From NCBI RefSeq assembly GCF_050920415.1, contig NZ_CP169309.1: a stretch of DNA of 64,000 nt; one strand, written 5' to 3'. The stretch's first letter is position 1. The number at the start of each line of letters is the position of its first letter. Below the pieces are notes generated by a model. It was given only the letters and a program-made list of their open reading frames with translations. It did no database searches and was not told the origin of the DNA. Positions 3,432-56,010 of the stretch are shown here, piece after piece. The stretch is from Escherichia coli (GTDB taxonomy: Bacteria; Pseudomonadota; Gammaproteobacteria; Enterobacterales; Enterobacteriaceae). The translations under genes and the position numbers were made by a program.

Positions 3432-3973
3432 AGCTGCTCCTTAGCCACCAGCGGTTCATCTGTGTCGTCGTTGATCAGCGTCGCGCGTTGTTTGCATTCC
3501 GGGCAGACGCTCGCTTGCGCCCACAACATTTCGCGGTTTTGTGGTGCATTTTGTTGCTGTGCCAACAGTTCTGCAGCCAGTGCGACGGTTTTTTGCGGGG
3601 CAAACGGGCGTTCGCAACGGCTGCAACGTTGTAGATGGAACTTCGCGCGGGTATAGAGATCGGCTTTATTGGTGACGGTCAGTTCAAAGTTATCAGTAAG
3701 CTGAATGGCTCTGGTCGGGCACACTTCTTCACAACGTCCGCAGTAAATACAACGCCCCAGATAGAGCTGCCAGGTGCGCGTATTTTGCTGGTCGTCGGTC
3801 TGGATAGTCAGCGCATTTGCCGGACAAGCACAGGCGCAGGCACCGCAGGCAATACATTGGCTGGGCATCAGGTCCGGTTTCCCGCGAAAGCCTGGGCTGA
3901 CCTCCAGTGGCGCGAAGGGATATTTCACCGTCGCGGTTCCGGCGCGCATAATAGTTTTCAGTAACTTCAGCAT
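3428..3973 (-). CDS. hyfH: Hydrogenase-4 ferredoxin-type subunit (2x 4Fe-4S)
   Basis: 181-aa ORF with two CxxCxxCxxxCP motifs. Confidence 0.9.
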
Positions 3974-3982
3974 TTTCTGTCC

Positions 3983-5743
3983 TTACTTCAGCGGCGAACG
4001 GTTACGATCAATGCCGTAGCGTTCGATCTCTTTATACGGCACGGTTTTTGACTGGCGCTTGCGCACATCAACCAGCGTCACACGGTCGGTACAGGAGTAG
4101 CAGGGATCAAGGCTACCGATAATCAGCGGTGCGTCAGAAACGGTATTGCCGCGCAGCATGTAACGCAGCACTGGCCAGTTGGCGTAGGTGGCGGCACGAC
4201 AGCGCCAGCGGAACAATTTTTGGTTATCGCCGAGCATGCTCCAGTGCACGTCTTCACCGCGTGGCGCTTCAACAAAGCCCAGCGCGAATGCGTGAGGTTT
4301 ATAGCTAAAGCCTTCGGTCAGCAGTGGGGTATCCGGCATGTTGTCGAGGGCAAATTCCAGCATTGCCAGCGAATCAAACGTCTCTTTGACACGGACCATC
4401 ACGCGGGAGAAGACATCGCCGCCGGTAAAGGTAAACAGCGTTTTTGGAATATTGCCGTAGTCGGCGTAGGGGTGATCAAAGCGCAAATCACGGGCAAAAC
4501 CACTGCCACGGATCAGCGGCCCTACGGGGCTATAATCACGGGCGATTTGTCGGTCGAGAATGCCAATGCCCTGAGTGCGTTGTTCCATATTCGGCGTGGC
4601 AAGCAGCATCTCTACCAGCTCCGACACGTCGGCGCGCATCTCGCGCACCAGTTTCATCGTTTGCAGACGTTGCTCTTTGAGAATATCGCGGCGAACACCA
4701 CCAATCAGATTCAGACCGTAGGTTTTACGCGACCCGGTCAGCAATTCCGCCATCGTCATCGACTTTTCCCGCACGCGGAAAAATTGCATAAAACCGGTAT
4801 CAAAACCAACAAAATGGCAGGAGAGGCCAAGGTTGAGCAAATGACTATGCAGCCGTTCGACTTCCAGCAGAATCGAGCGAATAGTATGCGCTCGTTGCGG
4901 CACCTCAATCCCCAGTGCATTTTCAACCGAGTTGGTATAGGCCACACTGTGGGCAAAACCGCAAATCCCACACACGCGGTCCGACAAGAAGGTCACTTCG
5001 TTGTAGCCCATCCGCGTTTCTGCCAGTTTCTCCATGCCGCGATGGACATAAAACAGGCGGTAATCAGCATCGACAATATGCTCGCCATCCACAAACAAGC
5101 GGAAGTGACCTGGTTCATCGGAGGTGATATGCAGCGGGCCAACAGGGATCACCCGCGCATCGCTGTTGCCCTCGTTGATAAACGGATACGTTTCGGTATC
5201 AGTCGTCGGTTCAGGGCGCAGGCGATAATCCATCGCGTCTTTGCGCAGCGGATGCATATCTTCCGGCCAGTCATCGGGCAACACCAGGCGACGCTGATCC
5301 GGCAGGCCAACCGGAATCAGCCCGTACATATCGCGAATTTCTCGCTCGCCCCAGACCGCGGCAGGGACGCGCGGTGTGACTGACGGAAACTCCCGACTGT
5401 CGGCATCGACCAGTGCCTTCACCACGATCCAGCATTTTTCGGCCCCTTCCATTGAAAGGGCATAATAAACCGCGTAATGACCGTTAAGTGTCCGCTCGTC
5501 GTTGCCAAACAGGACCGGAAGCCAGCCATCATGTTGATAATAAAGATAATGTACAACGTCAGGCAGCAGATTTATTTTCACCGTAATGGTGACCTGTTCA
5601 GGCGTTTGTCGCTCTTCATCCAGCACCGCGCCGGGGAACTGCGTTTTCAGGGCGGCGAGAATCGCTTCGCCACGATTTGACGATGAATTAACGTTCACTG
5701 TGTTTCTCCGAAACAGATGCGGTGCCTGAAGGCAAAAAATCAT
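3983..5743 (-). CDS. hyfG: Hydrogenase-4 large (NiFe) subunit
   Basis: Longest ORF 586 aa; NuoD/HycE-like sequence. True start is probably an internal GTG near 5698 ([14 protein letters not shown]...). Confidence 0.9.
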
Positions 5744-7268
5744 GCCAGGTGCTACGTTGTGCAGGCAGGTCGTGCGTCCCTGAGAGGACTATAGTGGAAG
5801 CGCCCGCCAGGATCCTGATGACAGGTTGTGGAATATGCGTTCCCATCGCCAGCATCATGACCAGCAGAATCACCATTGGCGAGGTGGTCAACCAGCCAAG
5901 TTCACCCCGGTTAACGGCCTGCGGCGGTTTCGCCATTAACACCCGCGCAGCCATCCGTACCAGGCCCGCCAGCACCAGCGTTAACAGCAATAACAGCAGG
6001 ACGATAATCAACAGGTGATTACGAGCCAGTCCGGCGGTAACGGTCATAAATTCGCTAAGAAAAATGTTGAAGGGCGGCATCCCGGCCAGCGCCAGCGCAC
6101 CGCCGCCAAACAGCACGGCGGTAAATGGCATGATTTTGAGCATTCCGCAGACGACGTTGAGATCGCGCGTGCCGTACTTGAGCAGTACATTGCCGGAACC
6201 GCAGAACAGCAGCGTTTTTGCCAGACTGTGGTTTAAGGTGTGCAGCAGCGCAGCAAAAATTCCCAGCGGCCCGCCAATGCCTAGCGCCACCGCGACCAGT
6301 CCCATGTTCTCCACGCTGGAGTACGCCAGCAGACGCTTAATGTCCCGCTGTACCAGAATGAAAAATGCCGCCACGGCAACCGACAACATGCCGAAGATGA
6401 GCAACAACCGGTTGGGGAAATCGCTGCCGATGGCCTGGCAAATAATGATGTAATAGCGAATCAGCACCAACAGCGCGCAGTTCAGCAATACGGCGGAGAG
6501 CAGGGCGCTGACCGGACTCGGCGCTTCACTGTGAGCATCCGGCAGCCAGGCGTGCATGGGAAATAGCCCGGTTTTGGTGCCAAAGCCAATTAGCACAAAC
6601 ACAAAGGCCAACAGCATTAATGTTGGGTCAAGCAAGGACGATTGCTTAAGAACCTCGCTCCAGAATATCGCCATTTCTGCCTGCGGCATAACGCTGGCGG
6701 CGTTGGCGTATACCAGCACGGTACCGAACAGACCAAAAGCGACACCAACAGTACAAATAATGATGTACTTCCATGCAGCTTCCAGAGATGAACGCTGACC
6801 GTAAATGCCTACCAGAAACGCCGAGCTTAAGGTGGTGGCTTCGATTGCCGCCCACATCACAATCAGGTTATTGCTGGTAACAACCAGCAGCATGGTGAAC
6901 AAAAACAGATGGAAGAAACCGTAGTAATCGCACAGCGTAACGGGTGAAAGCTCGCCGTGAGCCACTTCATGACGCATGTAGCCAATCGAGTAAACACCGG
7001 TGAGAAAGCCAATCACACCAAGAATGGCGAGGAACAAACCGCCCAGACCATCAATATGAAGCCACAGTCCGGCGGCGAATATTTCTTCCGCATCCGCGGC
7101 GGTTTTGACCACCCAGAGTGCCAGAATCAGCAGCAGCGTGATCCCTAAGCTATGTAATACTGTCACCGTGCGAGTCGCAGAGTGTCCCCGTTTCCGGCAG
7201 GCAAAACAGAGCAGCGAAAAAAGCAGCGGCGTGAGCAGGAGTAAAGCGAACATCACAGAATAACTCAT
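5688..7268 (-). CDS. hyfF: Hydrogenase-4 membrane subunit (NuoL/M/N antiporter-like)
   Basis: 526-aa polytopic membrane ORF; operon position. Confidence 0.9.
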
Positions 7269-7272
7269 CTCA

Positions 7273-7923
7273 TTATCCCTTCAGCGCGGTCAAGTTGTTC
7301 ACGTCCAGCGTGCCGTGGGTACGCCATATTTTTCTTGCCAGCAACACCATCACAACGACGGCGAAAATGGCATCGGTAGCGATACCAATTTCCACCAGTT
7401 CCGGTGCACGCCAGGCAAGAAGTGCCAGCACCAGATGGGAGCCGTTTTCCATCAGGCAGTAACCAAAAATTTGCCGCAGGATATTGCGCTGGCTGACAAT
7501 GCACAGCAGGCCAAGCAGAAAATGACCTAACGCCACCGCCAGCGCCGGTTTCAGCCCGGTAGCCATCGGTAGCTTCACGGGCTGAACGACAAATGCGCAA
7601 AGCAGGACAATTAATGCCGCGAGCAATGCCATCATTGCCGGACCGAATAACGCTTTTTCCGGGAGGTTCTGGGGAATATTTCGTGCAGCGTAAATCATGA
7701 TTAACGGTACCATCAGTACTTTGGTGATAAAGGCGCTGGCGGACCAGATCAGCAGTTGCTCTGCGGCGAACAGGCACGAGAGGGTGGCGAAAATAGACAC
7801 CAGCACCAGCGACTGGCAGGCGTAAAATCCGCATGACAGGCGATAGCTTTTGACACTAATCACAAACAGCGATGTCAGCATCATCAGTCCCGCCAGATTA
7901 TTTACGATCATAGAACCGGTCAT
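7273..7923 (-). CDS. hyfE: Hydrogenase-4 membrane subunit
   Basis: 216-aa hydrophobic ORF; operon position. Confidence 0.9.
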
Positions 7924-7934
7924 TCATCATCTCC

Positions 7935-9374
7935 TTACTGCAACCAGGTCGCGGCGAATACGCTGGAAATCAGCGACATCACAATCAGTACAATCAACAC
8001 CAGGCGCATTGATCCTGGCAGCGGTGCGGCATCAGCGACGGCCTCGCTCGGTTTGCCAGGCACAACGCGACCAAACCAGCGAATAAACCAGGCGAAACTG
8101 GCAATCGATTCAATCATCAGCAGAATCATGGCGGGCAGCAGGATCCAGTACTCCACTGACAACGAAAAACCGGCAGCAAACAGTGGGAATTTACTGAAGA
8201 AGCCGTTGAACGGCGGCACGCCAGTAATCGCCAGCGCGGCCACGCAGAAACCCACGCCTGGCAACGGCAGGGTGTGCAATACGCCACGCAGACGCGGCAA
8301 CAAGCGCGTGCCGCAGCTGTAACTCAGCGCACCGGCTACAAGGAAAAACAGGCTTTTAGCGAACGCGTGGTTGACGATGTAGGCGATGCTGCCCTCCAGT
8401 GCCAGCCGCGAGCCGAAGATGGAGAGCGACAAGCCGAAGAACATCCAGCCAAGTTGAGTGATGGTCGACCAGGCCAGCAACCGCTTCATATCCTGCTGCG
8501 GCAAATACATCAGGAAGCCGTAAAGAATGGTGACCAGTGCCATGACCATGCCAACGCCGCCAATCACATGCGGGATATTGCCGCCGTCGATAATGGCGCG
8601 GGCAAAAATGTAAACGCCCACTTTCACCATCGATGCGGCGTGGAGATAGGCGCTGATCGGTGTTGGCGCTTCCATTGCATCCGGTAGCCACGCTTGCATC
8701 GGTAGCTGGGCCGATTTCCCCCACGCGGCAAACAGGATGCCACCATAAACCAGATAGCGTGCGTCGCCGTGTAACTCGCTCATCGCGCTAAGCGCAAACG
8801 TTCCGGTCTGCAAAAACAGCGTGGCGGCGGCAAGATACAACCCCAGCGAACCGATATGAGTGATAAGTAACGCTTTTAGTGCTGAACGTTGCGCTTTATC
8901 GCTCTGGTAATAACTGATCAACGCCCAGGAGCAGCCGCCCGTAATTTCAAAAAACAACAACTGACCGAGCAGCGTCGAGGAGAGTACCAGTCCCGCCATC
9001 GCGCCGATAAAAACCAGCAAAAATGCGTAATAACGATTCGTGCCGTTATGCGGGTGTTCGCGATTTTTATCCGTCAGATAACCCGTGGAGTAGATCGTGA
9101 CCAGCAAACCGAGGAACACCACCACAAACAGAATCAGCGTACTCACGCGATCAATGATCAGGCCAAACAACGCCACATCCCCCACGTTGACCAACGTCAA
9201 CGTGACGGCAACTTTATCGGCCTGATAAAACGCGGAGATCAGCGACAACATGCACAGCGTGGTCAGCGCGGCGAACAAAATCCCCCATTCGGCGGCCCGA
9301 CGTTGTGGCGAAAACGAAACGACCAGTGCGCCGATAAAAGGCAGCAATAACGTCGTCAGAGCAAGATTTTCCAT
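7935..9374 (-). CDS. hyfD: Hydrogenase-4 membrane subunit (NuoL/M/N antiporter-like)
   Basis: 479-aa polytopic membrane ORF. Confidence 0.9.
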   Translation of the reverse strand: MENLALTTLLLPFIGALVVSFSPQRRAAEWGILFAALTTLCMLSLISAFYQADKVAVTLTLVNVGDVALFGLIIDRVSTLILFVVVFLGLLVTIYSTGYLTDKNREHPHNGTNRYYAFLLVFIGAMAGLVLSSTLLGQLLFFEITGGCSWALISYYQSDKAQRSALKALLITHIGSLGLYLAAATLFLQTGTFALSAMSELHGDARYLVYGGILFAAWGKSAQLPMQAWLPDAMEAPTPISAYLHAASMVKVGVYIFARAIIDGGNIPHVIGGVGMVMALVTILYGFLMYLPQQDMKRLLAWSTITQLGWMFFGLSLSIFGSRLALEGSIAYIVNHAFAKSLFFLVAGALSYSCGTRLLPRLRGVLHTLPLPGVGFCVAALAITGVPPFNGFFSKFPLFAAGFSLSVEYWILLPAMILLMIESIASFAWFIRWFGRVVPGKPSEAVADAAPLPGSMRLVLIVLIVMSLISSVFAATWLQ

Positions 9375-9390
9375 ATTCCGTCAGTGCTCC

Positions 9391-10338
9391 TTACAGACCG
9401 GTTAACCAGAAGACCCAGGCAAGCGCAGCAAGGCTGAAGCCAAGCCAGGTCACATGGTGAATGAGTAAAAAACGCCCGCGTGCCAGCGTGTTTTCTGCGA
9501 TAGAGGCCAGAACAAAAATCAGCAAAACCTTGAGCAGCGTAACGACAAGTGAAGTCAGCAGGCAGGTGAGAGAAAGCTCTTGCGCGCGCCCAAAGGGCAG
9601 AAACAGGGCCACAAACAGTGCTGCCATCACGACCTGTTTCAGCCCCAGCCCCCATTTCGCCAACGCCAGCCCGGCACCGGAATATTCGGTCAGCGGGCCT
9701 TCCTGTAATTCCTGTTCTGCTTCAGCAACATCAAAGGGAATTTTTCCCATCTCAATGAAGCAGGCAAAACCACAGGCCAGTAACGCCAGTACGGTGGTTA
9801 GCGGCGAGTTCCAGCCCGTCGCCAGCGTCTTGCTGATCATCTCGATATGCGTGGAATCCGCTATCAGCGCCAATACCAGCAGTGAGAGAATGAGCATTGG
9901 TTCGACCAGAATGCCGAGCGTCAACTCGCGACTGGCACCGACACCCGCAAACGGACTTCCGGTATCCAGCCCGGAAAGAGCAAAGAAAAAACGAAACAGG
10001 GCAAGAAGATAGATAAGGGTGATCAGATCGCCGCCGCCCGCAAAAGGGGAAACAGTAATAAATAGTGGTAGGGCCATCGCCAGCACCAGCATGCTGCTGA
10101 TTAATACCCACGGCATCAGGCGGAACATCAGACCTGAAGATGTCGGCGCAACTTCCTGGCGTTTAAACAGTTTGTGGATATCGCGATAATCCTGCCAGAT
10201 CCCCGGTCCGCGACGGGAGTGCATACGCGCGCGTATCTGCCGGGAAATCCCCGTAAAAAGCGGGGTTAGCGCCAGCAGAATCACGGCCTGTGCTAACGCA
10301 AAAATGATCAGATATCCGTCGCAAAGAGTTTGTCTCAT
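9391..10338 (-). CDS. hyfC: Hydrogenase-4 membrane subunit (NuoH/HycD-like)
   Basis: ORF 322 aa; start taken at internal Met (MRQTLCDGYL...) giving 315 aa. Confidence 0.9.
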   Translation of the reverse strand: MRQTLCDGYLIIFALAQAVILLALTPLFTGISRQIRARMHSRRGPGIWQDYRDIHKLFKRQEVAPTSSGLMFRLMPWVLISSMLVLAMALPLFITVSPFAGGGDLITLIYLLALFRFFFALSGLDTGSPFAGVGASRELTLGILVEPMLILSLLVLALIADSTHIEMISKTLATGWNSPLTTVLALLACGFACFIEMGKIPFDVAEAEQELQEGPLTEYSGAGLALAKWGLGLKQVVMAALFVALFLPFGRAQELSLTCLLTSLVVTLLKVLLIFVLASIAENTLARGRFLLIHHVTWLGFSLAALAWVFWLTGL

Positions 10339-10348
10339 GGTGATTTCC

Positions 10349-12367
10349 TTAGACGGCAATAGCGATTAGCAGCACAACCAGTGCGGCGACCACATACAGG
10401 CAATAGAGACGAAAGTCGCCGCTTTGCAGATGCTGTATTTCTTTGGCCAGCCGTTGGGTGGCGCTCACGATGGGGCGGATCACCCGCTCATCCCAAAAGG
10501 GTTCTGTGCTCTGAGCCCTGGCGGTGATGTGCGCGAGACCTTTGTTCAGCCTCAGCGTAGGGTCGAGCTGTTGTCGTAGACGAAATAGCGCAGAAAAGAC
10601 CACACGCAGCGGCTGCATCACGCCATTGCCTGACGGGGCCATCGCATTTTCCCAGCCGTAGCCGCATGCCCAGGCATCTCCTGTGCGACGAAACGCTGCG
10701 CGGCGCGAACGACACCACAGCCAGTAAAGGCCAGGCAGCAAAGGCATCGCCAGTAGTAACAGCAACAGTAATGAGGGAGTGACCCGTGTATGAAACGTGC
10801 CGGGTACAAGTGCCATTCCGCTGGCGACAGTGACGGAAGGGGTATTGGTAAACGCATGGGCAATGTGCATTATCTTCGGTGCCAGCCAACTGGCACTAAG
10901 CGCAATGAATACGCAGAGTGCCGCGAGCAGTAGCATGGCGACGATCATCGTATTTGGCACTTCCTGTGCCTCTTCAGCGTGTGTACTGCGCGGCGCACCA
11001 CAGAAAGTAATGCCGTACATTTTGACGAAGCACATTACTGCCAGCCCACCAGTGACTGCCAGCATCACCATAGCAATAGGACCCGCAAGTTGTAGCGCTA
11101 CGGCTTCCACACGACTTAGTGAGAACAGCGACTGCCAGGTGTACCATTCGCTGATAAAACCATTCAGCGGAGGAATGGCTGATATCGCGAGGCAACCAAT
11201 CAGGCATGCTGCGGCTGTCCACGGCATCCGTTTTGCCAGTGCCCCCATTTTTTCCATGTCGTGGGTATGCAAACGCGAAATAATCGCACCCGCGCCGAGA
11301 AATAGCAGCCCTTTGAACAGCGCATGGTTGAGCAGATGAAACAGTGCGCCGAGCAGTCCAACCACGGTGAGCAGCGGGTCGTGCAGTGACAGACCGACCA
11401 TGGACACACCGACCGCCAGCAAAATAATGCCGACGTTTTCGACGGTACTCCAGGCCAGCAGCCGTTTGATATCCTGTTCCGCCAGCGCATACAGCACGCC
11501 CAGGAGCGCGGAGATTGCGCCGATCGCCATCACCAGAATGCCCCACCACAGCGGCAAACCCGTTTGCGCCAGCAGATCCATCGCCACTTTCAGGATGCCG
11601 AAAATACCGATTTTGACCATTACGCCAGACATCAACGCCGAAGCGTGCGATGGTGCGGCAGGGTGAGCGCGCGGCAACCAGCTGTGCAACGGCATCATCC
11701 CGGCTTTCGCGCCAAAACCGAAGAAGGCCAGCAGGAACACCGCCGACGCCAGCCCCGGAGAAAGTGAAAGCGTGCGGAAACTGGCAAAATCGAGGTTGCC
11801 GCTTTCGCGCCACATCAGCAAGAAGGCAATCATAATCAGCACCGATCCGGCGTGGGCGATAAAAAAGTAGAGCATGCCAGCGTTGATTGACGTTTTATCC
11901 TGCCTGGCAATGACCAGAAACCAGGAAGACAGCGACATCATTTCAAACAGCACGATGAACCAAAAAGCGTTGTCCATCACCAGCAGGGCAACCATCGATG
12001 CGATGAAAAGATTCATAAAGAAGCCCATCGCCGCCGCGCCTTTGCCCTCGTATTCGCGCATATAAGTCAATGAATAGAGCGAACAAACCACCACCAGCAA
12101 GGAGATAACCAGCACCATAAATGCCGAGAGGCTATCCATTCGCAGGGTTAAATCGGCAAAGTCAAAAGGCGTGGCAAAACGGGCGACTAAAGTTACGCCT
12201 GCATGTAATTGCGTAATTCCGCTGATGATGCCAATCGCGCCGCCCACCAGCGATGTGATGCCGGAAAGCTTAATAGCCAGTCTGTCCAGACCGAGTAAAA
12301 ACAGCGAAGCCAGACTGGCAAACAGATAGAGGATCAGCGACCAGGTTAATAATTGCAGGGCATCCAT
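10349..12367 (-). CDS. hyfB: Hydrogenase-4 membrane subunit (NuoL-like)
   Basis: 672-aa polytopic membrane ORF; stop overlaps hyfC start region. Confidence 0.9.
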   Translation of the reverse strand: MDALQLLTWSLILYLFASLASLFLLGLDRLAIKLSGITSLVGGAIGIISGITQLHAGVTLVARFATPFDFADLTLRMDSLSAFMVLVISLLVVVCSLYSLTYMREYEGKGAAAMGFFMNLFIASMVALLVMDNAFWFIVLFEMMSLSSWFLVIARQDKTSINAGMLYFFIAHAGSVLIMIAFLLMWRESGNLDFASFRTLSLSPGLASAVFLLAFFGFGAKAGMMPLHSWLPRAHPAAPSHASALMSGVMVKIGIFGILKVAMDLLAQTGLPLWWGILVMAIGAISALLGVLYALAEQDIKRLLAWSTVENVGIILLAVGVSMVGLSLHDPLLTVVGLLGALFHLLNHALFKGLLFLGAGAIISRLHTHDMEKMGALAKRMPWTAAACLIGCLAISAIPPLNGFISEWYTWQSLFSLSRVEAVALQLAGPIAMVMLAVTGGLAVMCFVKMYGITFCGAPRSTHAEEAQEVPNTMIVAMLLLAALCVFIALSASWLAPKIMHIAHAFTNTPSVTVASGMALVPGTFHTRVTPSLLLLLLLAMPLLPGLYWLWCRSRRAAFRRTGDAWACGYGWENAMAPSGNGVMQPLRVVFSALFRLRQQLDPTLRLNKGLAHITARAQSTEPFWDERVIRPIVSATQRLAKEIQHLQSGDFRLYCLYVVAALVVLLIAIAV

Positions 12368-47312: not shown

Positions 47313-48712
47313 ACACTCGCCAGCTACTGAGCGTCGGTATCGATATCGGCACTACCACCACCCAGGTGATCTTCTCCCACCTGGAGCTGGTTAACCGTGC
47401 GGCGGTGTCGCAGGTGCCGCGCTACGAATTCATCAAACGCGAAATTAGCTGGCAAAGCCCGGTGTTCTTTACCCCTGTCGATAAACAGGGCGGTTTAAAA
47501 GAAGAGGAACTGAAATCCTTAATCCTCGAGCAATATCAGGCTGCGGGCATTGCGCCGGAAAGTGTGGATTCCGGTGCCATCATCATCACCGGCGAAAGCG
47601 CGAAAACCCGCAATGCTCGCCCGGCGGTGATGACGCTCTCTCAGTCGCTGGGCGATTTTGTCGTTGCCAGCGCTGGGCCGCATCTCGAATCCGTGATCGC
47701 CGGTCACGGTGCCGGGGCGCAAACCCTTTCTGAACAACGGTTATGTCGGGTACTGAATATCGACATCGGCGGTGGCACCGCGAACTACGCTTTGTTCGAT
47801 GCCGGAAAAATCAGCGGCACTGCCTGCCTTAACGTCGGCGGCCGCCTGCTGGAAACCGACAGCCAGGGACGCGTGGTTTACGCTCATATACCGGGGCAGA
47901 TGATTGTGGATGAGTGCTTCGGTGCAGGCACTGACGCCTGTTCACTGACCGGCGCGCAGCTGGTGCAGGTTACCCGGCGGATGGCGGAACTGATTGTCGA
48001 AGTGATTGACGGAACGCTCTCGCCGCTCGCGCAGGCATTGATGCAAACCGGTTTGCTGCCCGCAGGTGTTACGCCCGAAATCATTACGCTTTCTGGCGGC
48101 GTGGGCGAATGTTATCGCCACCAGCCCGCTGACCCGTTCTGTTTTGCCGATATTGGCCCGCTTCTGGCAACGGCGCTGCATGAGCATCCTCGTCTGCGTG
48201 AGATGAACGTGCAGTTTCCAGCGCAAACCGTGCGCGCCACGGTGATTGGCGCAGGCGCACATACCCTTTCGCTCTCTGGCAGCACAATCTGGCTGGAGGG
48301 GGTACAACTGCCGCTGCGCAATTTGCCGGTGGCGATCCCAATTGATGAAACGGATCTGGTGAGTGCCTGGCAACAAGCGCTAATTCAACTGGATCTTTGC
48401 CCCAAAACTGACGCGTACGTGCTGGCGCTTCCCGCCTCGCTGCCTGTGCGTTACGCCGCGGTACTGACGGTCATCAACGCGCTGGTCGATTTCGTCGCGC
48501 GTTTTCCGAATCCGCATCCCCTGCTGGTGGTGGCCGGGCAGGACTTTGGTAAAGCTCTGGGCATGTTGTTGCGTCCACAGCTACAACAACTCCCGTTGGC
48601 AGTCATTGACGAAGTGATTGTCCGCGCGGGGGACTATATCGACATTGGTACGCCTCTTTTTGGCGGATCGGTTGTGCCGGTGACGGTGAAATCACTCGCA
48701 TTTCCTTCCTGA
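47309..48712 (+). CDS. eutA: Ethanolamine ammonia-lyase reactivase
   Basis: 467-aa ORF; 4-nt overlap with eutH. Confidence 0.9.
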   Translation: MNTRQLLSVGIDIGTTTTQVIFSHLELVNRAAVSQVPRYEFIKREISWQSPVFFTPVDKQGGLKEEELKSLILEQYQAAGIAPESVDSGAIIITGESAKTRNARPAVMTLSQSLGDFVVASAGPHLESVIAGHGAGAQTLSEQRLCRVLNIDIGGGTANYALFDAGKISGTACLNVGGRLLETDSQGRVVYAHIPGQMIVDECFGAGTDACSLTGAQLVQVTRRMAELIVEVIDGTLSPLAQALMQTGLLPAGVTPEIITLSGGVGECYRHQPADPFCFADIGPLLATALHEHPRLREMNVQFPAQTVRATVIGAGAHTLSLSGSTIWLEGVQLPLRNLPVAIPIDETDLVSAWQQALIQLDLCPKTDAYVLALPASLPVRYAAVLTVINALVDFVARFPNPHPLLVVAGQDFGKALGMLLRPQLQQLPLAVIDEVIVRAGDYIDIGTPLFGGSVVPVTVKSLAFPS

Positions 48713-48723
48713 GGGAACGACTT

Positions 48724-50085
48724 ATGAAACTAAAGACCACATTGTTCGGCAATGTATATCAGTTTAAGGATGTAAAAGAGGTGCTGGCTAAAGCCAACGA
48801 ACTGCGTTCGGGGGATGTGCTGGCGGGCGTTGCAGCGGCAAGCTCACAGGAGCGCGTGGCGGCAAAGCAGGTGTTGTCGGAAATGACCGTAGCGGACATC
48901 CGCAATAATCCGGTGATTGCCTATGAAGATGACTGCGTTACGCGGTTGATTCAGGACGACGTTAACGAAACGGCATACAACCAGATTAAAAACTGGAGCA
49001 TCAGCGAACTGCGTGAGTATGTGCTGAGTGATGAAACCAGCGTTGACGACATTGCTTTTACCCGCAAAGGGCTGACCTCGGAAGTGGTCGCGGCGGTAGC
49101 GAAGATTTGCTCTAACGCGGACCTGATCTACGGCGCGAAGAAAATGCCGGTAATCAAAAAGGCCAATACAACTATTGGTATTCCGGGCACCTTCAGCGCC
49201 CGTTTGCAGCCAAACGATACCCGCGACGACGTGCAAAGTATCGCCGCGCAAATCTACGAAGGGCTTTCTTTCGGGGTGGGCGATGCGGTGATCGGCGTTA
49301 ACCCGGTGACTGACGACGTGGAAAACTTAAGCCGCGTGCTGGATACCATCTATGGCGTGATCGACAAATTCAACATTCCGACCCAGGGCTGCGTGCTGGC
49401 GCACGTTACTACCCAGATTGAAGCGATCCGTCGCGGCGCGCCGGGCGGGCTGATTTTCCAGAGCATCTGCGGCAGCGAAAAAGGGCTGAAAGAATTTGGC
49501 GTGGAGCTGGCGATGCTCGATGAAGCACGCGCAGTGGGCGCAGAGTTTAACCGTATCGCCGGGGAAAACTGCCTCTACTTCGAAACCGGGCAGGGTTCTG
49601 CGCTATCGGCGGGCGCTAACTTCGGTGCAGATCAGGTAACGATGGAAGCGCGTAACTACGGGCTGGCACGTCATTACGATCCGTTTATCGTCAACACCGT
49701 AGTGGGCTTTATTGGGCCAGAGTATCTCTACAACGACCGGCAGATTATCCGTGCGGGCTTAGAAGATCACTTTATGGGCAAACTGAGCGGCATTTCTATG
49801 GGCTGTGACTGCTGCTACACCAACCACGCTGACGCTGACCAGAACCTCAACGAAAACCTGATGATCCTGCTCGCCACCGCAGGCTGTAACTACATCATGG
49901 GGATGCCGCTGGGTGATGACATCATGCTCAACTACCAGACTACGGCCTTCCACGACACCGCCACTGTGCGTCAGTTACTCAACCTGCGCCCGTCACCGGA
50001 GTTTGAACGCTGGCTGGAAAGCATGGGCATTATGGCAAACGGTCGCCTGACCAAACGGGCGGGCGATCCGTCACTGTTCTTCTGA
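48724..50085 (+). CDS. eutB: Ethanolamine ammonia-lyase large subunit
   Basis: 453-aa ORF starting MKLKTTLFGNVYQFKDVKEVLAKANE; only 11 bp after eutA. Confidence 0.95.
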   Translation: MKLKTTLFGNVYQFKDVKEVLAKANELRSGDVLAGVAAASSQERVAAKQVLSEMTVADIRNNPVIAYEDDCVTRLIQDDVNETAYNQIKNWSISELREYVLSDETSVDDIAFTRKGLTSEVVAAVAKICSNADLIYGAKKMPVIKKANTTIGIPGTFSARLQPNDTRDDVQSIAAQIYEGLSFGVGDAVIGVNPVTDDVENLSRVLDTIYGVIDKFNIPTQGCVLAHVTTQIEAIRRGAPGGLIFQSICGSEKGLKEFGVELAMLDEARAVGAEFNRIAGENCLYFETGQGSALSAGANFGADQVTMEARNYGLARHYDPFIVNTVVGFIGPEYLYNDRQIIRAGLEDHFMGKLSGISMGCDCCYTNHADADQNLNENLMILLATAGCNYIMGMPLGDDIMLNYQTTAFHDTATVRQLLNLRPSPEFERWLESMGIMANGRLTKRAGDPSLFF

Positions 50086-50105
50086 TGACGCGGAGATAAC
50101 ACATC

Positions 50106-50993
50106 ATGGATCAAAAACAGATTGAAGAAATTGTACGCAGCGTGATGGCGTCAATGGGACAAGCGGCCCCCGCGCCGTCAGAAGCAAAATGCGCCACTAC
50201 CACCTGTGCAGCACCGGTGACCTCGGAAAGCTGCGCGCTGGATTTAGGTTCCGCAGAAGCAAAAGCGTGGATTGGCGTTGAAAACCCGCATCGCGCAGAC
50301 GTATTAACAGAACTGCGCCGCAGCACCGTGGCTCGCGTCTGTACCGGTCGTGCCGGTCCGCGTCCGCGTACCCAGGCGTTGCTGCGTTTCCTGGCCGATC
50401 ACTCTCGTTCGAAAGACACCGTACTGAAAGAAGTGCCGGAGGAGTGGGTGAAAGCGCAGGGCTTGCTGGAAGTCCGCTCTGAAATTAGCGACAAAAATCT
50501 CTATCTGACTCGCCCGGATATGGGCCGCCGCTTGTGTGCAGAGGCTGTTGAAGCGCTGAAAGCGCAGTGTGTTGCCAATCCGGACGTACAGGTGGTTATT
50601 TCCGATGGTCTATCTACTGATGCGATCACCGTGAACTATGAAGAGATTCTGCCACCGCTGATGGCGGGCCTGAAACAGGCCGGGTTGAAAGTCGGCACAC
50701 CGTTCTTTGTGCGTTACGGTCGCGTGAAGATTGAAGATCAGATTGGCGAACTTCTTGGCGCGAAAGTGGTGATCCTGCTGGTGGGTGAACGTCCGGGGTT
50801 GGGGCAGTCAGAAAGTCTCTCCTGCTACGCCGTTTACTTGCCGCGTATGGCAACCACCGTTGAGGCCGACCGTACCTGTATCTCTAACATTCACCAGGGC
50901 GGCACGCCGCCGGTTGAAGCCGCAGCCGTCATTGTGGATTTGGCGAAACGTATGCTGGAGCAGAAAGCATCCGGCATCAACATGACCCGATAA
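50106..50993 (+). CDS. eutC: Ethanolamine ammonia-lyase small subunit
   Basis: 295-aa ORF. Confidence 0.95.
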
Positions 50994-52220: not shown

Positions 52221-53273
52221 ATGAAAAAGACCCGTACAGCCAATTTGCACCATCTTTATCATGAACCCTTACCCGAAAACCTGAAGCTCACGCCGAAGGT
52301 CGAAGTGGATAATGTTCATCAACGACAGACAACGGATGTCTATGAACATGCTTTGACGATTACCGCCTGGCAGCAGATTTACGATCAGCTGCATCCGGGC
52401 AAGTTTCATGGTGAATTTACGGAAATTCTACTCGATGATATTCAGGTTTTTCGTGAATACACCGGTCTGGCGCTGCGTCAGTCGTGCCTGGTCTGGCCGA
52501 ACTCGTTCTGGTTTGGCATTCCGGCGACGCGCGGTGAGCAGGGATTTATCGGTTCGCAATGTCTGGGAAGCGCAGAAATTGCGACACGCCCTGGAGGAAC
52601 CGAGTTTGAATTAAGTACGCCGGACGATTACACGATCCTTGGCGTGGTGCTTTCTGAAGATGTCATCACCCGTCAGGCTAACTTTTTGCATAACCCGGAA
52701 AGGGTGCTGCATATGTTACGTAACCAGTCGGCGCTGGAAGTGAAAGAGCAGCATAAAGCCGCGCTGTGGGGCTTTGTCCAACAGGCTCTGGCGACATTTT
52801 GCGAGAACCCGGAAAATCTCCATCAGCCTGCAGTGCGAAAAGTGCTGGGGGATAATTTGCTAATGGCGATGGGGGCGATGCTGGAAGAAGCGCAGCCAAT
52901 GGTGACGGCGGAAAGTATCAGCCACCAGAGTTACCGTCGCTTGTTGACCCGCGCGCGTGAATATGTGCTGGAGAATATGTCCGAACCGGTAACCGTGCTG
53001 GATTTGTGCAATCAACTGCATGTCAGCCGCCGCACGCTACAAAACGCGTTTCACGCTCTTTTAGGCATTGGCCCAAACGCGTGGCTGAAACGCATTCGCC
53101 TGAACGCCGTGCGCCGCGAACTGATAAGCCCGTGGTCGCAAAGTACAACGGTCAAAGATGCCGCCATGCAGTGGGGATTCTGGCATCTGGGGCAATTCGC
53201 CACGGATTACCAGCAACTGTTTGCCGAGAAGCCGTCTCTGACGCTACATCAGCGGATGCAGGAACTGGAGTGA
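52221..53273 (+). CDS. eutR: AraC-family transcriptional activator of eut operon
   Basis: 350-aa ORF with C-terminal AraC-type HTH. Confidence 0.9.
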
Positions 53274-53349
53274 GGGTGAGGGCCGGATGAGGATGGTGTT
53301 TGATCCGGTCCATAGTGAAGTTACAAATTACGTTGAATTGCTATGTATT

Positions 53350-53667
53350 TTATTGCCCAACGGGATAGGCGATAAACAAACCGACAATTGTCAGAATACA
53401 CGCCAGCAGGAATACCAACATACAATTTACGCGCTTTCGCGAAATTTTAAATAAATAGCAAAATAGTGTTGTTACCACGATCACTACCGGGATAGTCATA
53501 AAATTAATAACGATGAGTGCTATCAATCCAAAACTTGCTCCTCCACCGTGGGGAATAAAAATGTGTTCTTCAAAATAAACTTCTATAGCAAATGCCAGCA
53601 CACATCCCAGAAAACTCATATCCAGATGAGGGTGCCATTTACTTTCTTTATTTGATGTGTCTGACAT
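53350..53667 (-). CDS. Hypothetical small membrane protein (3 predicted TM helices), accessory
   Basis: 105-aa ORF in markedly AT-rich DNA; GGGAG SD ~9 nt upstream of ATG; hydrophobic segments; no K-12 counterpart at this position that I recognise. Confidence 0.6.
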   Translation of the reverse strand: MSDTSNKESKWHPHLDMSFLGCVLAFAIEVYFEEHIFIPHGGGASFGLIALIVINFMTIPVVIVVTTLFCYLFKISRKRVNCMLVFLLACILTIVGLFIAYPVGQ

Positions 53668-53707
53668 TCTTAAATGCTCCCGTGAGCAAACTGGCGCAAA
53701 ATAATTT

Positions 53708-54970
53708 CTAAGATTGCTGATAAGACGTCGCTGTTGTCCGGCACTCCGGGCAGATAAACGCGTAAATTATCCCTTCGCCATATTGTTCAATATCGGCATA
53801 ATCCAGTTGCGCAAGAAACATCATTGTGTGGGAACATTGCGGACAGAGAGGATATTCCGCGTCCTGAATCCAGGTTGGATGCCCGCCAAGTTGCGAGAAA
53901 GAGACAGGTAAAAATGGGTCTGCGGCAAATAACGGTGACCTAAGGTTTCCCTGTCTCATGCTGTTTACAGGGAGTCGACGCCATTCCGATACATCATCCG
54001 GCAGCCAGGCAGGCGGGATATTTTTTGCAGACAAATGAGCGTTACCCTTTGAGTCCATGTAGCCGAAAATGGTGCTGTAGGCGGTGCAACATTCGCAAGT
54101 CACGACGCGAAAACTGCCGTTATCGCTAAGACCCGTTGCCTTCAGGTCAACGTCGAAAAGATTTGTTAGGGGCAATGCGCACTTTGGACAGGTATCGCTG
54201 CGTTCATCAACAACACGCAAAGCTTCGCAAGACCCGGTGCTTTTCATCTCCAGATGAAAACATTGAGGAAAATAGAGATTACGCCTTTGATCTTCAGCGG
54301 TTAACTCCCAACCGGCCTCATGCGCATATTCTTCTGGCGCGATGTAAAGTGAACTGCGCCACAGCGGCGGGTTATTGCGCCAGTAGGCAAAACGTTCAAC
54401 AACAACGTCATCCCCAATCCATGCCAGACATTGCAGAATACAATTTCTGTTTTCTGCATCATCCTCAACCCGTTCTAACAGCGTATCGCGAACATCCGCT
54501 GGGGCGCGGTGGAAAGGCAGAGGAGAATAAGCGTCTAAATCATCATAAGAGATCCACTCTCGTAAATATGCATCCAGATTTGCCTGGGTAAACGCCGCCA
54601 GACAAAGACAAATCTCCTGAGCGTGTTCATATTCACCAGACGCAAAGCGTTCTGTGGCGTAATCAGCCATTTGCTGCGCTTGCTCGGCGGTCAACTGTTG
54701 ATACAGGGCATCGGTGGGAACGGGGCAGGGAGTCCAGTCGATTAACGCATCGAATTTCCGCGGTTGGTGAATTAATTTAAGCATGGCAACCGGATCGCTT
54801 AACCCAGCAAACGCATTCACGATCTTTTTGTTTTTCTTGATATATTCGTCGTGCTCACGCTGCTGTTGGGCCTGCTCGCAGGGCATGCAGTATCCGTTAG
54901 TACGCGCTGCGGTTTCCGGAAGAATGGTTGATGTACAAGCGGGGCTTTTACAGGGAATACGGTGAGTCAT
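53708..54970 (-). CDS. Hypothetical cytoplasmic protein with CxxC zinc-ribbon-like motifs and C-terminal DUF1963 (YwqG-like)-type region, accessory
   Basis: 420-aa ORF with AAGGAG SD 8 nt upstream; C-terminus LGGHPTWIQDAEYPLCPQC...MMFLAQLD...GEGIIYAFICPEC resembles the DUF1963 signature as I recall it; additional CxxC pairs at the N-terminus and mid-protein; absent from K-12 at this position. Confidence 0.7.
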   Translation of the reverse strand: MTHRIPCKSPACTSTILPETAARTNGYCMPCEQAQQQREHDEYIKKNKKIVNAFAGLSDPVAMLKLIHQPRKFDALIDWTPCPVPTDALYQQLTAEQAQQMADYATERFASGEYEHAQEICLCLAAFTQANLDAYLREWISYDDLDAYSPLPFHRAPADVRDTLLERVEDDAENRNCILQCLAWIGDDVVVERFAYWRNNPPLWRSSLYIAPEEYAHEAGWELTAEDQRRNLYFPQCFHLEMKSTGSCEALRVVDERSDTCPKCALPLTNLFDVDLKATGLSDNGSFRVVTCECCTAYSTIFGYMDSKGNAHLSAKNIPPAWLPDDVSEWRRLPVNSMRQGNLRSPLFAADPFLPVSFSQLGGHPTWIQDAEYPLCPQCSHTMMFLAQLDYADIEQYGEGIIYAFICPECRTTATSYQQS

Positions 54971-55107
54971 AGAGGCGCTCCTTGCCTGAGGATATTAAGT
55001 CGAAAGAGATTATTATTAGATATTAGGGTGTCACTATGGCACACAAATTAAACAGAATTAATTTCAAGCCACAAACATAGGGTTATTTTTCTTTTATTTT
55101 CATGATA

Positions 55108-56010
<903 letters not shown>

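What the first reader, a model, noticed from the sequence alone, without database searches (positions are those of the whole stretch)
53274..55107. Two-gene accessory cassette between the convergent 3' ends of eutR and hemF
Seen in sequence: a 1.8-kb segment with two co-oriented minus-strand genes (420 aa, then 105 aa 40 bp downstream), each with a good Shine-Dalgarno, lies between the stops of eutR and hemF. From my recollection of K-12, eutR and hemF are essentially adjacent there, so this is an indel relative to K-12. The downstream part is strongly AT-rich compared with the flanking core genes. Neither protein matches any characterised E. coli protein I recognise. A soluble multi-zinc-ribbon protein paired with a small membrane protein is an architecture seen in some phage-defence and toxin/immunity modules, but this is inference only.
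Basis: partly seen in the sequence, partly recalled or inferred. Interest (0 to 1): 0.72.

Follow-up and report, generated by a model that had tools for sequence, protein, structure and literature searches.

The report
Old TYPP-protein gene pair, mostly lost
The two genes are real, but they are an old enterobacterial gene pair that over 99% of E. coli have deleted, not a newly inserted cassette: one encodes a zinc-binding protein-binding protein related to the eukaryotic chaperone PDCD2/Tsr4, the other a small membrane protein, and neither has a known function.

Summary
Two co-oriented minus-strand genes lie between the stops of eutR and hemF: A (53708-54970, 420 aa) and B (53350-53667, 105 aa). 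K-12 has 5 bp there.

The "inserted accessory cassette" reading does not hold. The same genes sit at the 3' side of hemF in E. albertii, E. fergusonii-like contigs, Kluyvera, Klebsiella, Citrobacter and Salmonella. Their synonymous divergence tracks that of hemF. No integrase, tRNA or flanking repeats mark the segment, and A has no phage or full-length plasmid copy. Only 28 of 5426 complete E. coli genomes keep the segment, so the K-12 state is a deletion.

A has an N-terminal Cys4 zinc ribbon, a HEAT-like helical domain and a two-repeat zinc-bearing TYPP (DUF1963/YwqG/PDCD2/Tsr4) domain. This matches "TYPP family two" of Burroughs and Aravind (2014). B is a three-helix membrane protein of Pfam YpfK, found only in Enterobacteriaceae. 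Each gene occurs without the other, so they are not an obligate pair.

No known defence family matches. Outside Paenibacillus, however, A homologues recur beside immunity and conflict genes. My best guess, at moderate confidence, is a non-enzymatic protein binder with an immunity-like role. Function is untested and interest is modest.

The parts
53708..54970 (-). Gene A, 420 aa: cytoplasmic protein with a zinc ribbon, a HEAT-like helical domain and a TYPP domain. RefSeq WP_000149701.1, 'DUF1963 domain-containing protein'.
   Evidence: ORF. RefSeq annotation. AF2 model with pLDDT 96.3 and pTM 0.91. 1419 representative clusters at E<=1e-3. dN/dS 0.09-0.31.
54878..54970 (-). A residues 1-31: N-terminal Cys4 zinc ribbon (C7, C12, C28, C31).
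   Evidence: The four Cys are invariant in alignments A3 and A5. The AF2 model has short strands at 5-6 and 15-16, a short helix at 18-23 and a long helix from residue 29. No Pfam zinc-finger family matches this region.
54311..54877 (-). A residues about 32-220: alpha-helical repeat domain, HEAT/ARM-like.
53711..54310 (-). A residues 221-420: two-repeat all-beta TYPP (DUF1963/YwqG-like) domain with two Cys4 sites and the GGHP...Q motif.
53350..53667 (-). Gene B, 105 aa: small inner-membrane protein with three predicted TM helices, Pfam YpfK (PF26378). RefSeq WP_001285748.1, 'hypothetical protein'.
   Evidence: ORF. Homologues carry precomputed PF26378. Helices at B residues 13-33, 45-73 and 79-104 in the linked AF2 model. 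Conserved IFIPxGGGxSFG and LACxLTIxGLFIAYP motifs. dN/dS 0.15-0.29.
54971..55107 (-). 137-bp AT-rich spacer between the hemF stop and the A start. It contains A's Shine-Dalgarno sequence. In other strains cargo is inserted here.
   Evidence: Sequence. GC 0.365-0.40. No consensus promoter found. TacA/GNAT is inserted here in E7-1N7 and SNF2 plus a 223-aa gene in E2348/69.
53668..53707 (-). 40-bp A-B spacer with B's Shine-Dalgarno sequence (GGGAG).
   Evidence: Sequence.
53274..53349 (.). 76-bp spacer between the B stop and the eutR stop. The K-12 deletion boundary lies within about 10 bp of its eutR end.
   Evidence: No terminator-like site lies in this spacer; the only one found on the minus strand (53394-53381) lies inside B.
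52221..53273 (+). eutR, flanking core gene. Its last four residues are QELE here and REWG in K-12.
55108..56007 (-). hemF, flanking core gene and the conserved upstream neighbour of A across Enterobacteriaceae.

Best explanation
Shown: the segment is an ancestral, chromosomally fixed enterobacterial locus at the 3' side of hemF. It is not a mobile insertion. Most E. coli lost it through a clean deletion of about 1.83 kb between the hemF and eutR stop codons.

Gene A encodes a cytoplasmic, non-enzymatic protein with three parts: an N-terminal Cys4 zinc ribbon, a HEAT-like helical repeat domain, and a two-repeat zinc-stabilised TYPP domain. The TYPP domain is the fold of B. subtilis YwqG and of the eukaryotic uS5 chaperones PDCD2/Tsr4. 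The architecture is that of 'TYPP family two'. Gene B encodes a three-helix membrane protein restricted to Enterobacteriaceae. Each gene occurs without the other, so they are neighbours and not an obligate pair.

Inferred: A works by binding a protein ligand. The conserved GGHP...Q pocket of the TYPP domain would capture an extended peptide segment, and the HEAT-like surface would add contacts, by analogy with PDCD2 binding the FxxGFG segment of uS5. The most likely biological role is immunity-like: sequestering or neutralising a foreign or toxic protein such as an interbacterial toxin. On this reading the hemF-eutR gap is a small orphan-immunity and conflict-gene hotspot, and B may be an independent membrane-type immunity protein.

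Confidence in identity, architecture and evolutionary polarity is about 0.9. Confidence in the immunity-like role is about 0.35-0.4.
For: Synteny. hemF-A-B occurs in E. albertii, collinear at 87% identity across cassette and flanks. hemF-A-B-maeB occurs in E. fergusonii-like contigs, Kluyvera and Klebsiella. Citrobacter has hemF-Ank-A-eutR. Salmonella has hemF-B-A.

Descent. dS of A tracks dS of hemF: 0.60 vs 0.55 against E. albertii and 0.11 vs 0.14 against L017. There are no flanking repeats above chance. There is no phage or viral-contig copy, and the only plasmid match is a weak partial one (residues 359-420, 36% identity, on a 1.1-Mb Gemmatirosa replicon).

Separability. A occurs without B in Citrobacter, in E. 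coli WL297 and in all non-enterobacterial homologues. B occurs with A deleted in Salmonella L015. The B family is confined to Enterobacteriaceae.

Immunity or conflict context of A homologues:
- A co-oriented array of DUF4274, Barstar/Imm50, DMP19, SUKH, Colicin_Pyocin immunity and HEAT genes on an integrase-bearing element (L085).
- Fusion to (P0103) and adjacency to (L066) DUF2625, which also scores as SUKH_6 at E 8.4e-5.
- An SMI1_KNR4 gene two genes upstream and a TIR protein convergent in Shewanella.
- A Tli3-family T6SS immunity gene plus TPR genes beside A in E. coli WL297.
- McrBC and Wadjet nearby in L083.
- A macro-domain gene downstream in Clostridium L056.
Against: No toxin gene lies next to A in the window or in any locus examined.

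In the largest group of homologues (Paenibacillus) the neighbours are ordinary housekeeping and regulatory genes. Pfam scans of 150 neighbours showed no recurrent immunity family, and no neighbour family is conserved. SUKH genes are numerous in some genomes, so single adjacencies could be chance.

A is large and unusually conserved for an immunity protein: 38-50% identity between Firmicutes and Proteobacteria, with an invariant pocket. That fits a conserved endogenous ligand better than an arms race.

Zhang et al. 2012 do not list DUF1963 or PDCD2 among immunity families. PADLOC, NCBIfam and PHROGs give nothing for A or B. The ligand is unknown and nothing here tests binding.
Confidence: 0.4

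Rival explanations
1. A is a dedicated chaperone or adaptor for an endogenous bacterial protein, the direct analogue of PDCD2/Tsr4 with uS5. In Enterobacteriaceae, B is its client or its membrane anchor.
For: The TYPP domain of PDCD2 binds a disordered client segment co-translationally. Burroughs and Aravind proposed a chaperone-like role for bacterial TYPP proteins. A is highly conserved, with an invariant pocket, across phyla. A-B adjacency is kept in two different gene orders, A-B and B-A, over saturated dS. Most Paenibacillus contexts are housekeeping.
Against: The phyletic distribution is very patchy, with full-length or near-full-length matches in roughly 50 of about 100,000 species representatives under strict patterns. 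That is odd for a chaperone of a conserved client. There is no conserved neighbour outside Enterobacteriaceae. A and B occur separately. The linked AF2 model gave no confident docking: B's N-terminal tail has pLDDT below 50 and pTM fell from 0.91 to 0.73. That test is weak, because the paired alignment was shallow and a monomer model was used.
Confidence: 0.25
2. A and B together form a two-gene anti-phage defence system, with a cytoplasmic sensor and a membrane effector.
For: The pair is a soluble zinc-ribbon protein next to a small membrane protein, and it is rare in E. coli. In other strains and lineages the locus or A's neighbourhood holds defence-type genes. These are an SNF2 helicase resembling the ZorD/DpdE helicase half in E2348/69, a TacA/GNAT toxin-antitoxin pair, a TIR protein, and McrBC plus Wadjet.
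Against: No PADLOC model matches either protein. B is confined to Enterobacteriaceae, while A is widespread and usually has no membrane partner. Each gene persists without the other. The locus is vertically inherited and not in a mobile island. A has no nuclease, NTPase or other effector domain.
Confidence: 0.08
3. The pair is a decaying relic with no current function in E. coli, caught before deletion.
For: It is lost in more than 99% of E. coli. A is split into two ORFs in L016. A is reduced to a 150-bp remnant in Salmonella L015. Several truncated Salmonella versions appear in AFDB. B is replaced in three E. coli genomes.
Against: Both genes are intact here and under purifying selection, including within Escherichia: dN/dS 0.18 and 0.29 against L017, 0.16 and 0.29 against E. 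albertii. A keeps every invariant residue of the family.
Confidence: 0.1
4. A is an enzyme that modifies peptides or proteins, using the conserved glutamine pocket as an active site. Burroughs and Aravind called this the 'radical' reading.
For: Q388 and the GGHP motif are invariant, and there is a deep conserved pocket in the family. Stand-alone occurrence fits a self-contained activity.
Confidence: 0.05

Closest known systems
TYPP superfamily, bacterial 'family two' (Burroughs and Aravind 2014, PMC4275035); Pfam DUF1963 (PF09234); B. subtilis YwqG (PDB 1PV5)
   Different: The Pfam DUF1963 model matches only its first 51 positions, on the C-terminal repeat (E 5.8e-5). YwqG itself lacks the zinc ribbon, the HEAT-like domain and the Cys4 sites. 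The N-terminal zinc finger is not recognised by Pfam as dksA/traR-type. No member of family two has an experimentally known function.
Eukaryotic PDCD2 / Tsr4 / PDCD2L, dedicated chaperones of ribosomal protein uS5
   Same: They share the TYPP domain, with GGxP, CxxC and Gln motifs in two repeats. Their established mechanism is binding of a disordered client segment in hydrophobic pockets of the TYPP domain. This is the model for how A would bind a ligand.
   Different: PDCD2 carries a MYND zinc finger inserted between the repeats and has no HEAT-like domain. [quoted passage not shown] A is non-essential and patchily distributed. No client is known.
Immunity proteins of polymorphic toxin systems and heterogeneous polyimmunity loci (Zhang et al. 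2012, PMC3482391), including Imm-HEAT, Imm-Ank and SUKH
   Same: A homologue sits in a co-oriented array of Barstar, DMP19, SUKH and colicin-immunity genes. Another homologue is fused to a SUKH-like domain (DUF2625). The E. coli locus also hosts a Tli3-family T6SS immunity gene, TPR and Ank genes in other strains. A contains a HEAT-like repeat, and there is precedent for HEAT immunity proteins. Small multi-TM proteins such as B resemble immunity proteins against membrane-acting toxins.
   Different: No adjacent toxin was seen anywhere. DUF1963/TYPP is not among the immunity families listed in that study. A is far more conserved than typical immunity proteins. Most contexts are uninformative. 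Neutralisation is untested.
Pfam YpfK (PF26378)
   Same: B and all 33 homologue clusters found carry, or align with, this family. They are 95-109 aa and have the conserved IFIPxGGGxSFG and LFIAYP motifs.
   Different: The family has no described function. It is limited to Enterobacteriaceae and always lies in the hemF-eutR or hemF-maeB gap. The Pfam-A copy available for direct scanning did not contain the model, so membership rests on precomputed annotation.

Membership tests
TYPP superfamily (DUF1963 / YwqG / PDCD2 / Tsr4) | Two-repeat, strand-swapped all-beta fold as in YwqG (PDB 1PV5) | tested here: met
TYPP superfamily (DUF1963 / YwqG / PDCD2 / Tsr4) | GGxP motif and a highly conserved Gln in the repeat | tested here: met
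   G362, G363 and Q388 are invariant and P365 is at least 90% conserved across 93 homologues; H364 is invariant in the closer 18-sequence set. The first repeat carries the conserved AGWE motif.
TYPP superfamily (DUF1963 / YwqG / PDCD2 / Tsr4) | Pair of CxxC motifs per repeat (present in a subset of the superfamily) | tested here: met
   C261/C264 with C292/C295, and C376/C379 with C407/C410, are invariant or at least 90% conserved.
TYPP superfamily (DUF1963 / YwqG / PDCD2 / Tsr4) | Match to the Pfam DUF1963 profile | tested here: met
   E 5.8e-5, 24 bits, residues 359-406 against model positions 1-51 of 216 only. Precomputed PF09234 on many homologues. The match is partial and weak.
TYPP superfamily (DUF1963 / YwqG / PDCD2 / Tsr4) | Binds a protein or peptide ligand through the TYPP pocket | not testable with these tools
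   Known only for PDCD2/Tsr4. No ligand is known for any bacterial member.
TYPP 'family two' (Burroughs and Aravind 2014) | Uncharacterised N-terminal alpha-helical domain fused to the TYPP domain | tested here: met
TYPP 'family two' (Burroughs and Aravind 2014) | N-terminal C4 zinc finger of the dksA/traR type (in several members) | tested here: inconclusive
   A Cys4 cluster (C7, C12, C28, C31) is conserved. Pfam gives no zf-dskA_traR hit even at E<=10, and the spacing is C-x4-C-x15-C-x2-C.
Pfam YpfK (PF26378), for protein B | Match to the family profile | tested here: met
   Precomputed PF26378 on B's cluster representative and on nearly all homologues and on the neighbouring genes in other species. 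The local Pfam-A scan lacked the model.
Known anti-phage defence systems (PADLOC-DB 2.0) | Any component protein matching a defence-system model | tested here: not met
   No families for A or B at E<=1. Nothing in PHROGs or NCBIfam either.
Polymorphic-toxin immunity proteins (criteria of Zhang et al. 2012) | Gene immediately downstream of, or next to, a toxin-domain gene | tested here: not met
   The neighbours in the window are eut genes, hemF and amiA. No toxin gene was seen in any of the loci examined.
Polymorphic-toxin immunity proteins (criteria of Zhang et al. 2012) | Occurrence in heterogeneous polyimmunity loci | tested here: met
   Met for a homologue, not for the window. P0082 (41% identity, full length) lies in an array with DUF4274, Barstar/Imm50, DMP19, SUKH_5/SMI1_KNR4, Colicin_Pyocin and HEAT genes. 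There is only one such clear locus.
Polymorphic-toxin immunity proteins (criteria of Zhang et al. 2012) | Fusion to other immunity domains | tested here: inconclusive
   P0103 is DUF2625 fused to a full-length A. DUF2625 also lies adjacent in L066 and scores as SUKH_6 at E 8.4e-5. DUF2625 itself has no demonstrated immunity role.
Polymorphic-toxin immunity proteins (criteria of Zhang et al. 2012) | Neutralises a cognate toxin | not testable with these tools
   Requires co-expression or competition experiments.
Mobile genomic island or cassette | Integrase or transposase, tRNA or att site, flanking direct or inverted repeats, copies on phages or plasmids | tested here: not met
   No such genes in the annotated neighbourhood. 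Only chance-level short repeats. No Rfam hit. No relatives in IMG/VR or phage records, and one weak partial match (residues 359-420) on a Gemmatirosa megaplasmid.

The most novel reading that the evidence does not exclude
TYPP-family-2 proteins (zinc ribbon, HEAT-like domain and TYPP domain) are a previously unrecognised class of bacterial immunity or conflict proteins that neutralise a protein toxin or effector by capturing a peptide segment. On this reading the eukaryotic ribosomal-protein chaperones PDCD2/Tsr4 descend from such a bacterial conflict module, as has been argued for the SUKH and SuFu immunity domains. The E. coli presence/absence polymorphism, which includes the well-studied strain E2348/69, would make this directly testable.
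Probability: 0.27. Interest if true: 0.6.

Novelty: new member of a known kind. Interest (0 to 1): 0.33.

Why it matters
The bacterial function of the TYPP domain is an open question. Its eukaryotic descendants, PDCD2 and Tsr4, are essential chaperones, but no bacterial member has a known ligand or phenotype. This locus offers a natural knockout series in a tractable organism: intact in 25 complete E. coli genomes including E2348/69, lacking B in three, and absent in more than 5,000. The recurring immunity and conflict neighbours of homologues give a concrete hypothesis to test. For genome annotation, the practical lesson is that a gap relative to K-12 can be an ancestral locus deleted in the reference lineage and not an acquired island. 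If the genes turn out to be ordinary, nothing important changes.

Tried and rejected
- PADLOC, NCBIfam and PHROGs on A and B gave no usable hit.
- The promoter and terminator scan found nothing above shuffled expectation, so the transcription unit is unresolved.
- Rfam found nothing.
- The repeat search found no target-site duplication or terminal repeats. A 17-nt 76% direct repeat near both ends (53323-53339 and 55043-55059) is at chance level and cannot explain the K-12 junction.
- I looked for a conserved partner of A outside Enterobacteriaceae by ORF calling and all-against-all BLAST of neighbours in 47 loci. None was found, and no B homologue either.
- A Pfam scan of 150 neighbour proteins showed only housekeeping and regulator families recurring.
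- AF2 of A joined to B by a 40-residue linker gave no confident docking. I regard this as a weak negative.
- Scans of IMG/VR and phage records found no relatives. The plasmid search gave only one weak partial hit.
- Literature searches for ypfK, DUF2625 and STM2452/STM2453 found nothing relevant.
- A first attempt to scan genome contigs with the 93-sequence alignment failed for lack of a conserved word. It was repeated with 18 closer sequences.
- I rejected a type II toxin-antitoxin reading: there is no toxin-like domain and the sizes and architecture are wrong.
- I could not decide between retention and re-import by homologous recombination in individual E. coli lineages, because the whole neighbourhood is unusually diverse.
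Full report
**1. The observation**

The ORF list shows gene A at 53708-54970 (minus strand, 420 aa) and gene B at 53350-53667 (minus strand, 105 aa). They lie between eutR (52221-53273, plus strand) and hemF (55108-56007, minus strand). Both genes have good Shine-Dalgarno sequences and they are separated by 40 bp. GC drops to 0.375-0.39 over B and to 0.365-0.40 over the hemF-A spacer. A itself is at about 0.47-0.515 and the flanking genes at 0.53-0.585. In K-12 MG1655 the stops of hemF and eutR are 5 bp apart, and window 53277-55107 has no K-12 counterpart. The window is identical to E. coli MFDS1022581, where RefSeq calls A "DUF1963 domain-containing protein" and B "hypothetical protein". The description is therefore correct in every particular.

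**2. Distribution in E. coli**

The 1.83-kb segment is found in 28 of 5426 complete E. coli genomes, at 91-100% identity and always on the chromosome. Twenty-five genomes carry at least 80% of it, and three lack the B part. A K-12-type junction, or an insert smaller than about 800 bp, is present in 5394 genomes. Within E. coli the segment is rare and K-12 represents the common state.

**3. Polarity: an ancestral locus, not an insertion**

Homologues of A and B occupy the same position immediately downstream of hemF, on the same strand, in several relatives:
- E. albertii: hemF-A-B, then the eut operon. The region is collinear with the window at 87% identity through cassette and flanks.
- E. 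fergusonii-like contigs: hemF-A-B-maeB, with no eut operon.
- Kluyvera georgiana and an unclassified Klebsiella: hemF-A-B-maeB.
- Citrobacter sp. S2-9: hemF, an ankyrin-repeat gene, A, eutR, with no B.
- Superficieibacter and an uncultured Enterobacteriaceae genome: a hemF-sized ORF (about 300 aa) followed by A; coproporphyrinogen oxidase was confirmed in two of the neighbour proteins scanned.
- Salmonella: hemF-B-A in Paratyphi A, so the order is swapped on the same strand. Another Salmonella contig has hemF-B followed by a 150-bp remnant of the 3' end of A.

Synonymous divergence of A follows that of hemF: 0.60 vs 0.55 against E. albertii and 0.11 vs 0.14 against the E. fergusonii-like contig. 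No integrase, transposase or tRNA is annotated nearby. Flanking repeats are at chance level and there is no Rfam match. A has no relatives in IMG/VR contigs or phage records, and only a weak partial match on one megaplasmid. The simplest history is an old enterobacterial locus that most E. coli lost by a clean deletion between two stop codons. The deletion end lies within about 10 bp of the eutR stop, and the last four EutR residues differ (QELE here, REWG in K-12).

I could not decide whether individual carrier lineages retained the locus or regained it by homologous recombination. The whole neighbourhood is unusually diverse:
- The window is only about 95% identical to K-12 over 45 kb.
- Its eutR 3' allele is at least 99% identical in just 2 of 5426 genomes.
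- hemF-side identities among carrier strains, K-12 and the E. fergusonii-like contig all fall in the range 94-98%.

**4. Both genes are real and are maintained**

Pairwise dN/dS is 0.09-0.31 for A and 0.15-0.29 for B, against 0.05-0.12 for hemF. The locus does decay repeatedly. A is split into two ORFs in one E. fergusonii-like contig. A is deleted or truncated in many Salmonella. B is replaced in three E. coli genomes.

**5. What A is**

A exhaustive HMMER search of 1.84 billion representative proteins found 1419 clusters at E<=1e-3 and 273 at E<=1e-30. Full-length homologues of about 420 aa, at 35-55% identity, occur in Paenibacillus (many species), Clostridium, Chitinimonas, Shewanella electrica, Planctomycetes and Verrucomicrobia. 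With a 93-sequence alignment, AlphaFold2 gives pLDDT 96.3 and pTM 0.91. The model has three parts:
- Residues 1-31: a zinc ribbon.
- Residues about 32-220: a helical repeat domain.
- Residues 221-420: a beta domain made of two similar units.

These are the features Burroughs and Aravind (2014) used to define the TYPP superfamily (Tsr4, YwqG, PDCD2L, PDCD2): a GGxP motif, a conserved Gln and optional CxxC pairs in two repeats. Their "family two" is described as fused to an uncharacterised N-terminal alpha-helical domain, often with an N-terminal C4 zinc finger. AFDB neighbours of the model include the Campylobacter proteins they used as seeds. I therefore place A in TYPP family two. One caveat is that Pfam does not recognise the N-terminal finger as dksA/traR-type.

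**6. What B is**

B has three hydrophobic helices. In the linked AF2 model they are B residues 13-33, 45-73 and 79-104. The basic loop KISRKRVN lies between helices 2 and 3. The most conserved motifs are IFIPxGGGxSFG, between helices 1 and 2, and LACxLTIxGLFIAYP. All homologues carry Pfam YpfK (PF26378) in the precomputed annotation. Single-sequence and profile searches found only 19 and 33 clusters, all from Escherichia, Salmonella, Kluyvera and related Enterobacteriaceae. The family has no literature.

**7. Are A and B a system?**

Adjacency is conserved across genera whose dS is saturated, and in two different orders (A-B and B-A). That argues for some linkage. Several points argue against an obligate pair:
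- A lacks B in Citrobacter and in three E. coli genomes.
- Outside Enterobacteriaceae, neighbour clustering in 47 loci found no conserved partner and no B homologue.
- B persists where A is deleted.
- An AF2 model of A joined to B by a flexible linker left the linker and B's N-terminal tail below pLDDT 50, and pTM fell to 0.73. This gives no support for a complex, but it is a weak test.

I conclude that they are neighbours and separable.

**8. Mechanism**

What is established for the fold comes from eukaryotes. PDCD2/Tsr4 binds the disordered N-terminal extension of ribosomal protein uS5 through its TYPP domain. Mutations in either repeat abolish binding, and two phenylalanines of an FxxGFG motif insert into hydrophobic pockets (PMC7736825, PMC13127195). 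Those authors note that bacterial TYPP proteins must have other clients. By inference, A is a non-enzymatic protein binder in which the HEAT-like domain adds a second surface.

For the biological role, context gives a lead. In Paenibacillus the neighbours are ordinary. In other lineages, conflict-type genes recur:
- A full-length homologue (41% identity) sits in a co-oriented array of DUF4274, Barstar/Imm50, DMP19, SUKH/SMI1_KNR4, colicin/pyocin immunity and HEAT genes. The array lies downstream of an integrase, a replication-initiator gene (Rep_O) and DnaB. This is a heterogeneous polyimmunity locus in the sense of Zhang et al. 2012.
- One Paenibacillus homologue is fused to DUF2625. In another genome DUF2625 is the adjacent gene, and it scores secondarily as SUKH_6.
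- In Shewanella electrica the order is an SMI1_KNR4 gene, a 95-aa zinc-ribbon membrane protein, then A, then a convergent CAP12/Pycsar-type TIR protein.
- McrBC and Wadjet lie within 8 kb in another genome.
- A macro-domain, DarG-like gene follows A in Clostridium faecium.

The E. coli hotspot itself acquires similar cargo in other strains:
- A Tli3-family T6SS immunity gene plus two TPR genes in WL297.
- A TacA/GNAT toxin-antitoxin pair in E7-1N7.
- An SNF2 helicase resembling the helicase half of ZorD/DpdE in E2348/69.
- A 221/223-aa protein shared by WL297 and E2348/69 at 58% identity.
- An ankyrin-repeat gene at the same site in Citrobacter.

My best guess is therefore an immunity-like role: binding and neutralising a foreign protein. 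B may be an independent membrane-type immunity protein.

The counter-evidence is real. No toxin gene is adjacent anywhere. Most contexts are uninformative. A is unusually conserved for an immunity protein. Zhang et al. do not list DUF1963 or PDCD2 among immunity families. No PADLOC model matches. I put this role at about 0.35-0.4, an endogenous chaperone or adaptor role at 0.25, and a two-gene phage-defence system at under 0.1.

**9. Novelty and verdict**

The sequences are already in RefSeq and UniProt in hundreds of Escherichia and Salmonella genomes. The superfamily and this architecture were described computationally in 2014, and B has a Pfam family. What remains unknown is function. The finding is a real and correctly described feature, but its framing as a novel inserted defence or toxin cassette is largely not supported. 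It is a member of a known but uncharacterised family at an ancestral locus that the reference strain lost. The immunity or conflict association of family-two TYPP proteins is, as far as I could find, not stated in the papers I read, and it is testable in E2348/69. That keeps the interest above the floor.

Noticed in passing
window 19186-64000 (whole aligned part): The window is only about 95% identical to K-12 over 45 kb, uniformly. hemF dS against K-12 is 0.24. The last 800 bp of eutR are at least 99% identical in only 2 of 5426 complete E. coli genomes (MFDS1022581 and EC42405); all others are at 90-95%. The strain appears to be a deeply divergent 'E. coli' lineage, or this neighbourhood carries very old haplotypes.
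   Followed up: partly
L002 (E. coli E2348/69) 6795-10912: Between A and hemF, E2348/69 carries an 1149-aa SNF2-family helicase and a convergent 223-aa protein with no family hit. The helicase matches the helicase half of PADLOC ZorD/DpdE (E 2.5e-124) and NCBIfam SCO1167/SCO6262 helicase (679 bits, below the 1200 cut-off). This could be an uncharacterised defence-like insertion.
   Followed up: partly
L080 (E. coli WL297) 146-2440: In three E. coli genomes B is replaced by a 221-aa protein plus, on the other strand, a 'T6SS immunity protein Tli3 family' gene and two TPR/Sel1-like genes. The 221-aa protein is 58% identical to the E2348/69 223-aa protein. The same unknown gene therefore recurs at different positions in this hotspot.
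   Followed up: partly
L079 (E. coli E7-1N7) 3293-4085: A TacA antitoxin and GNAT (TacT-like) toxin pair is inserted in the hemF-A spacer of one strain.
   Followed up: no
window 53262-53285 and L003 4126-4145: EutR ends in QELE in the window and REWG in K-12, at the same length of 350 aa. K-12 lacks 6 nt and reads through the first TGA to a second one. The deletion boundary lies within about 10 bp of this point.
   Followed up: partly
window about 47500-50200 (eutA-eutB junction; L001 36-2812): eutA and eutB are adjacent here, so the eut operon is uninterrupted. K-12 carries the 6.8-kb CPZ-55 cryptic prophage between them.
   Followed up: no
L085 1769-15827 (sediment metagenome contig): An integrase, Rep_O and DnaB element is followed by at least nine co-oriented genes. 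They include the A homologue, DUF4274, Barstar/Imm50, DMP19, SUKH, a colicin/pyocin immunity protein and a 577-aa HEAT protein. This is a mobile heterogeneous polyimmunity array.
   Followed up: partly
L057 (Shewanella electrica) 3126-6389: The order is SMI1_KNR4 (178 aa), then a 95-aa protein with an N-terminal CxxC...CxxC zinc ribbon and two TM helices, then the A homologue, then a convergent TIR-domain protein (Pfam CAP12-PCTIR_TIR, E 1.6e-38). This is a second, unrelated small membrane protein next to A.
   Followed up: partly
L016 3698-4960; L015 5041-5190: Gene A is split into 128-aa and 289-aa ORFs in one E. fergusonii-like contig. It is reduced to a 150-bp 3' remnant in a Salmonella contig that keeps B intact. 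AFDB holds several truncated Salmonella versions of 255-364 aa.
   Followed up: partly
window 53323-53339 and 55043-55059: A 17-nt imperfect direct repeat (76% identity) lies just inside both ends of the segment. It is probably chance in AT-rich DNA, and it cannot explain the K-12 junction, which keeps no copy.
   Followed up: yes
B residues 36-47 (window about 53527-53562): The most conserved motif of B, IFIPxGGGxSFG, loosely recalls the FxxGFG segment of uS5 that PDCD2's TYPP domain binds. By the positive-inside rule it should face the periplasm or membrane, and it has low pLDDT in the linked model. I regard the resemblance as coincidental.
   Followed up: partly
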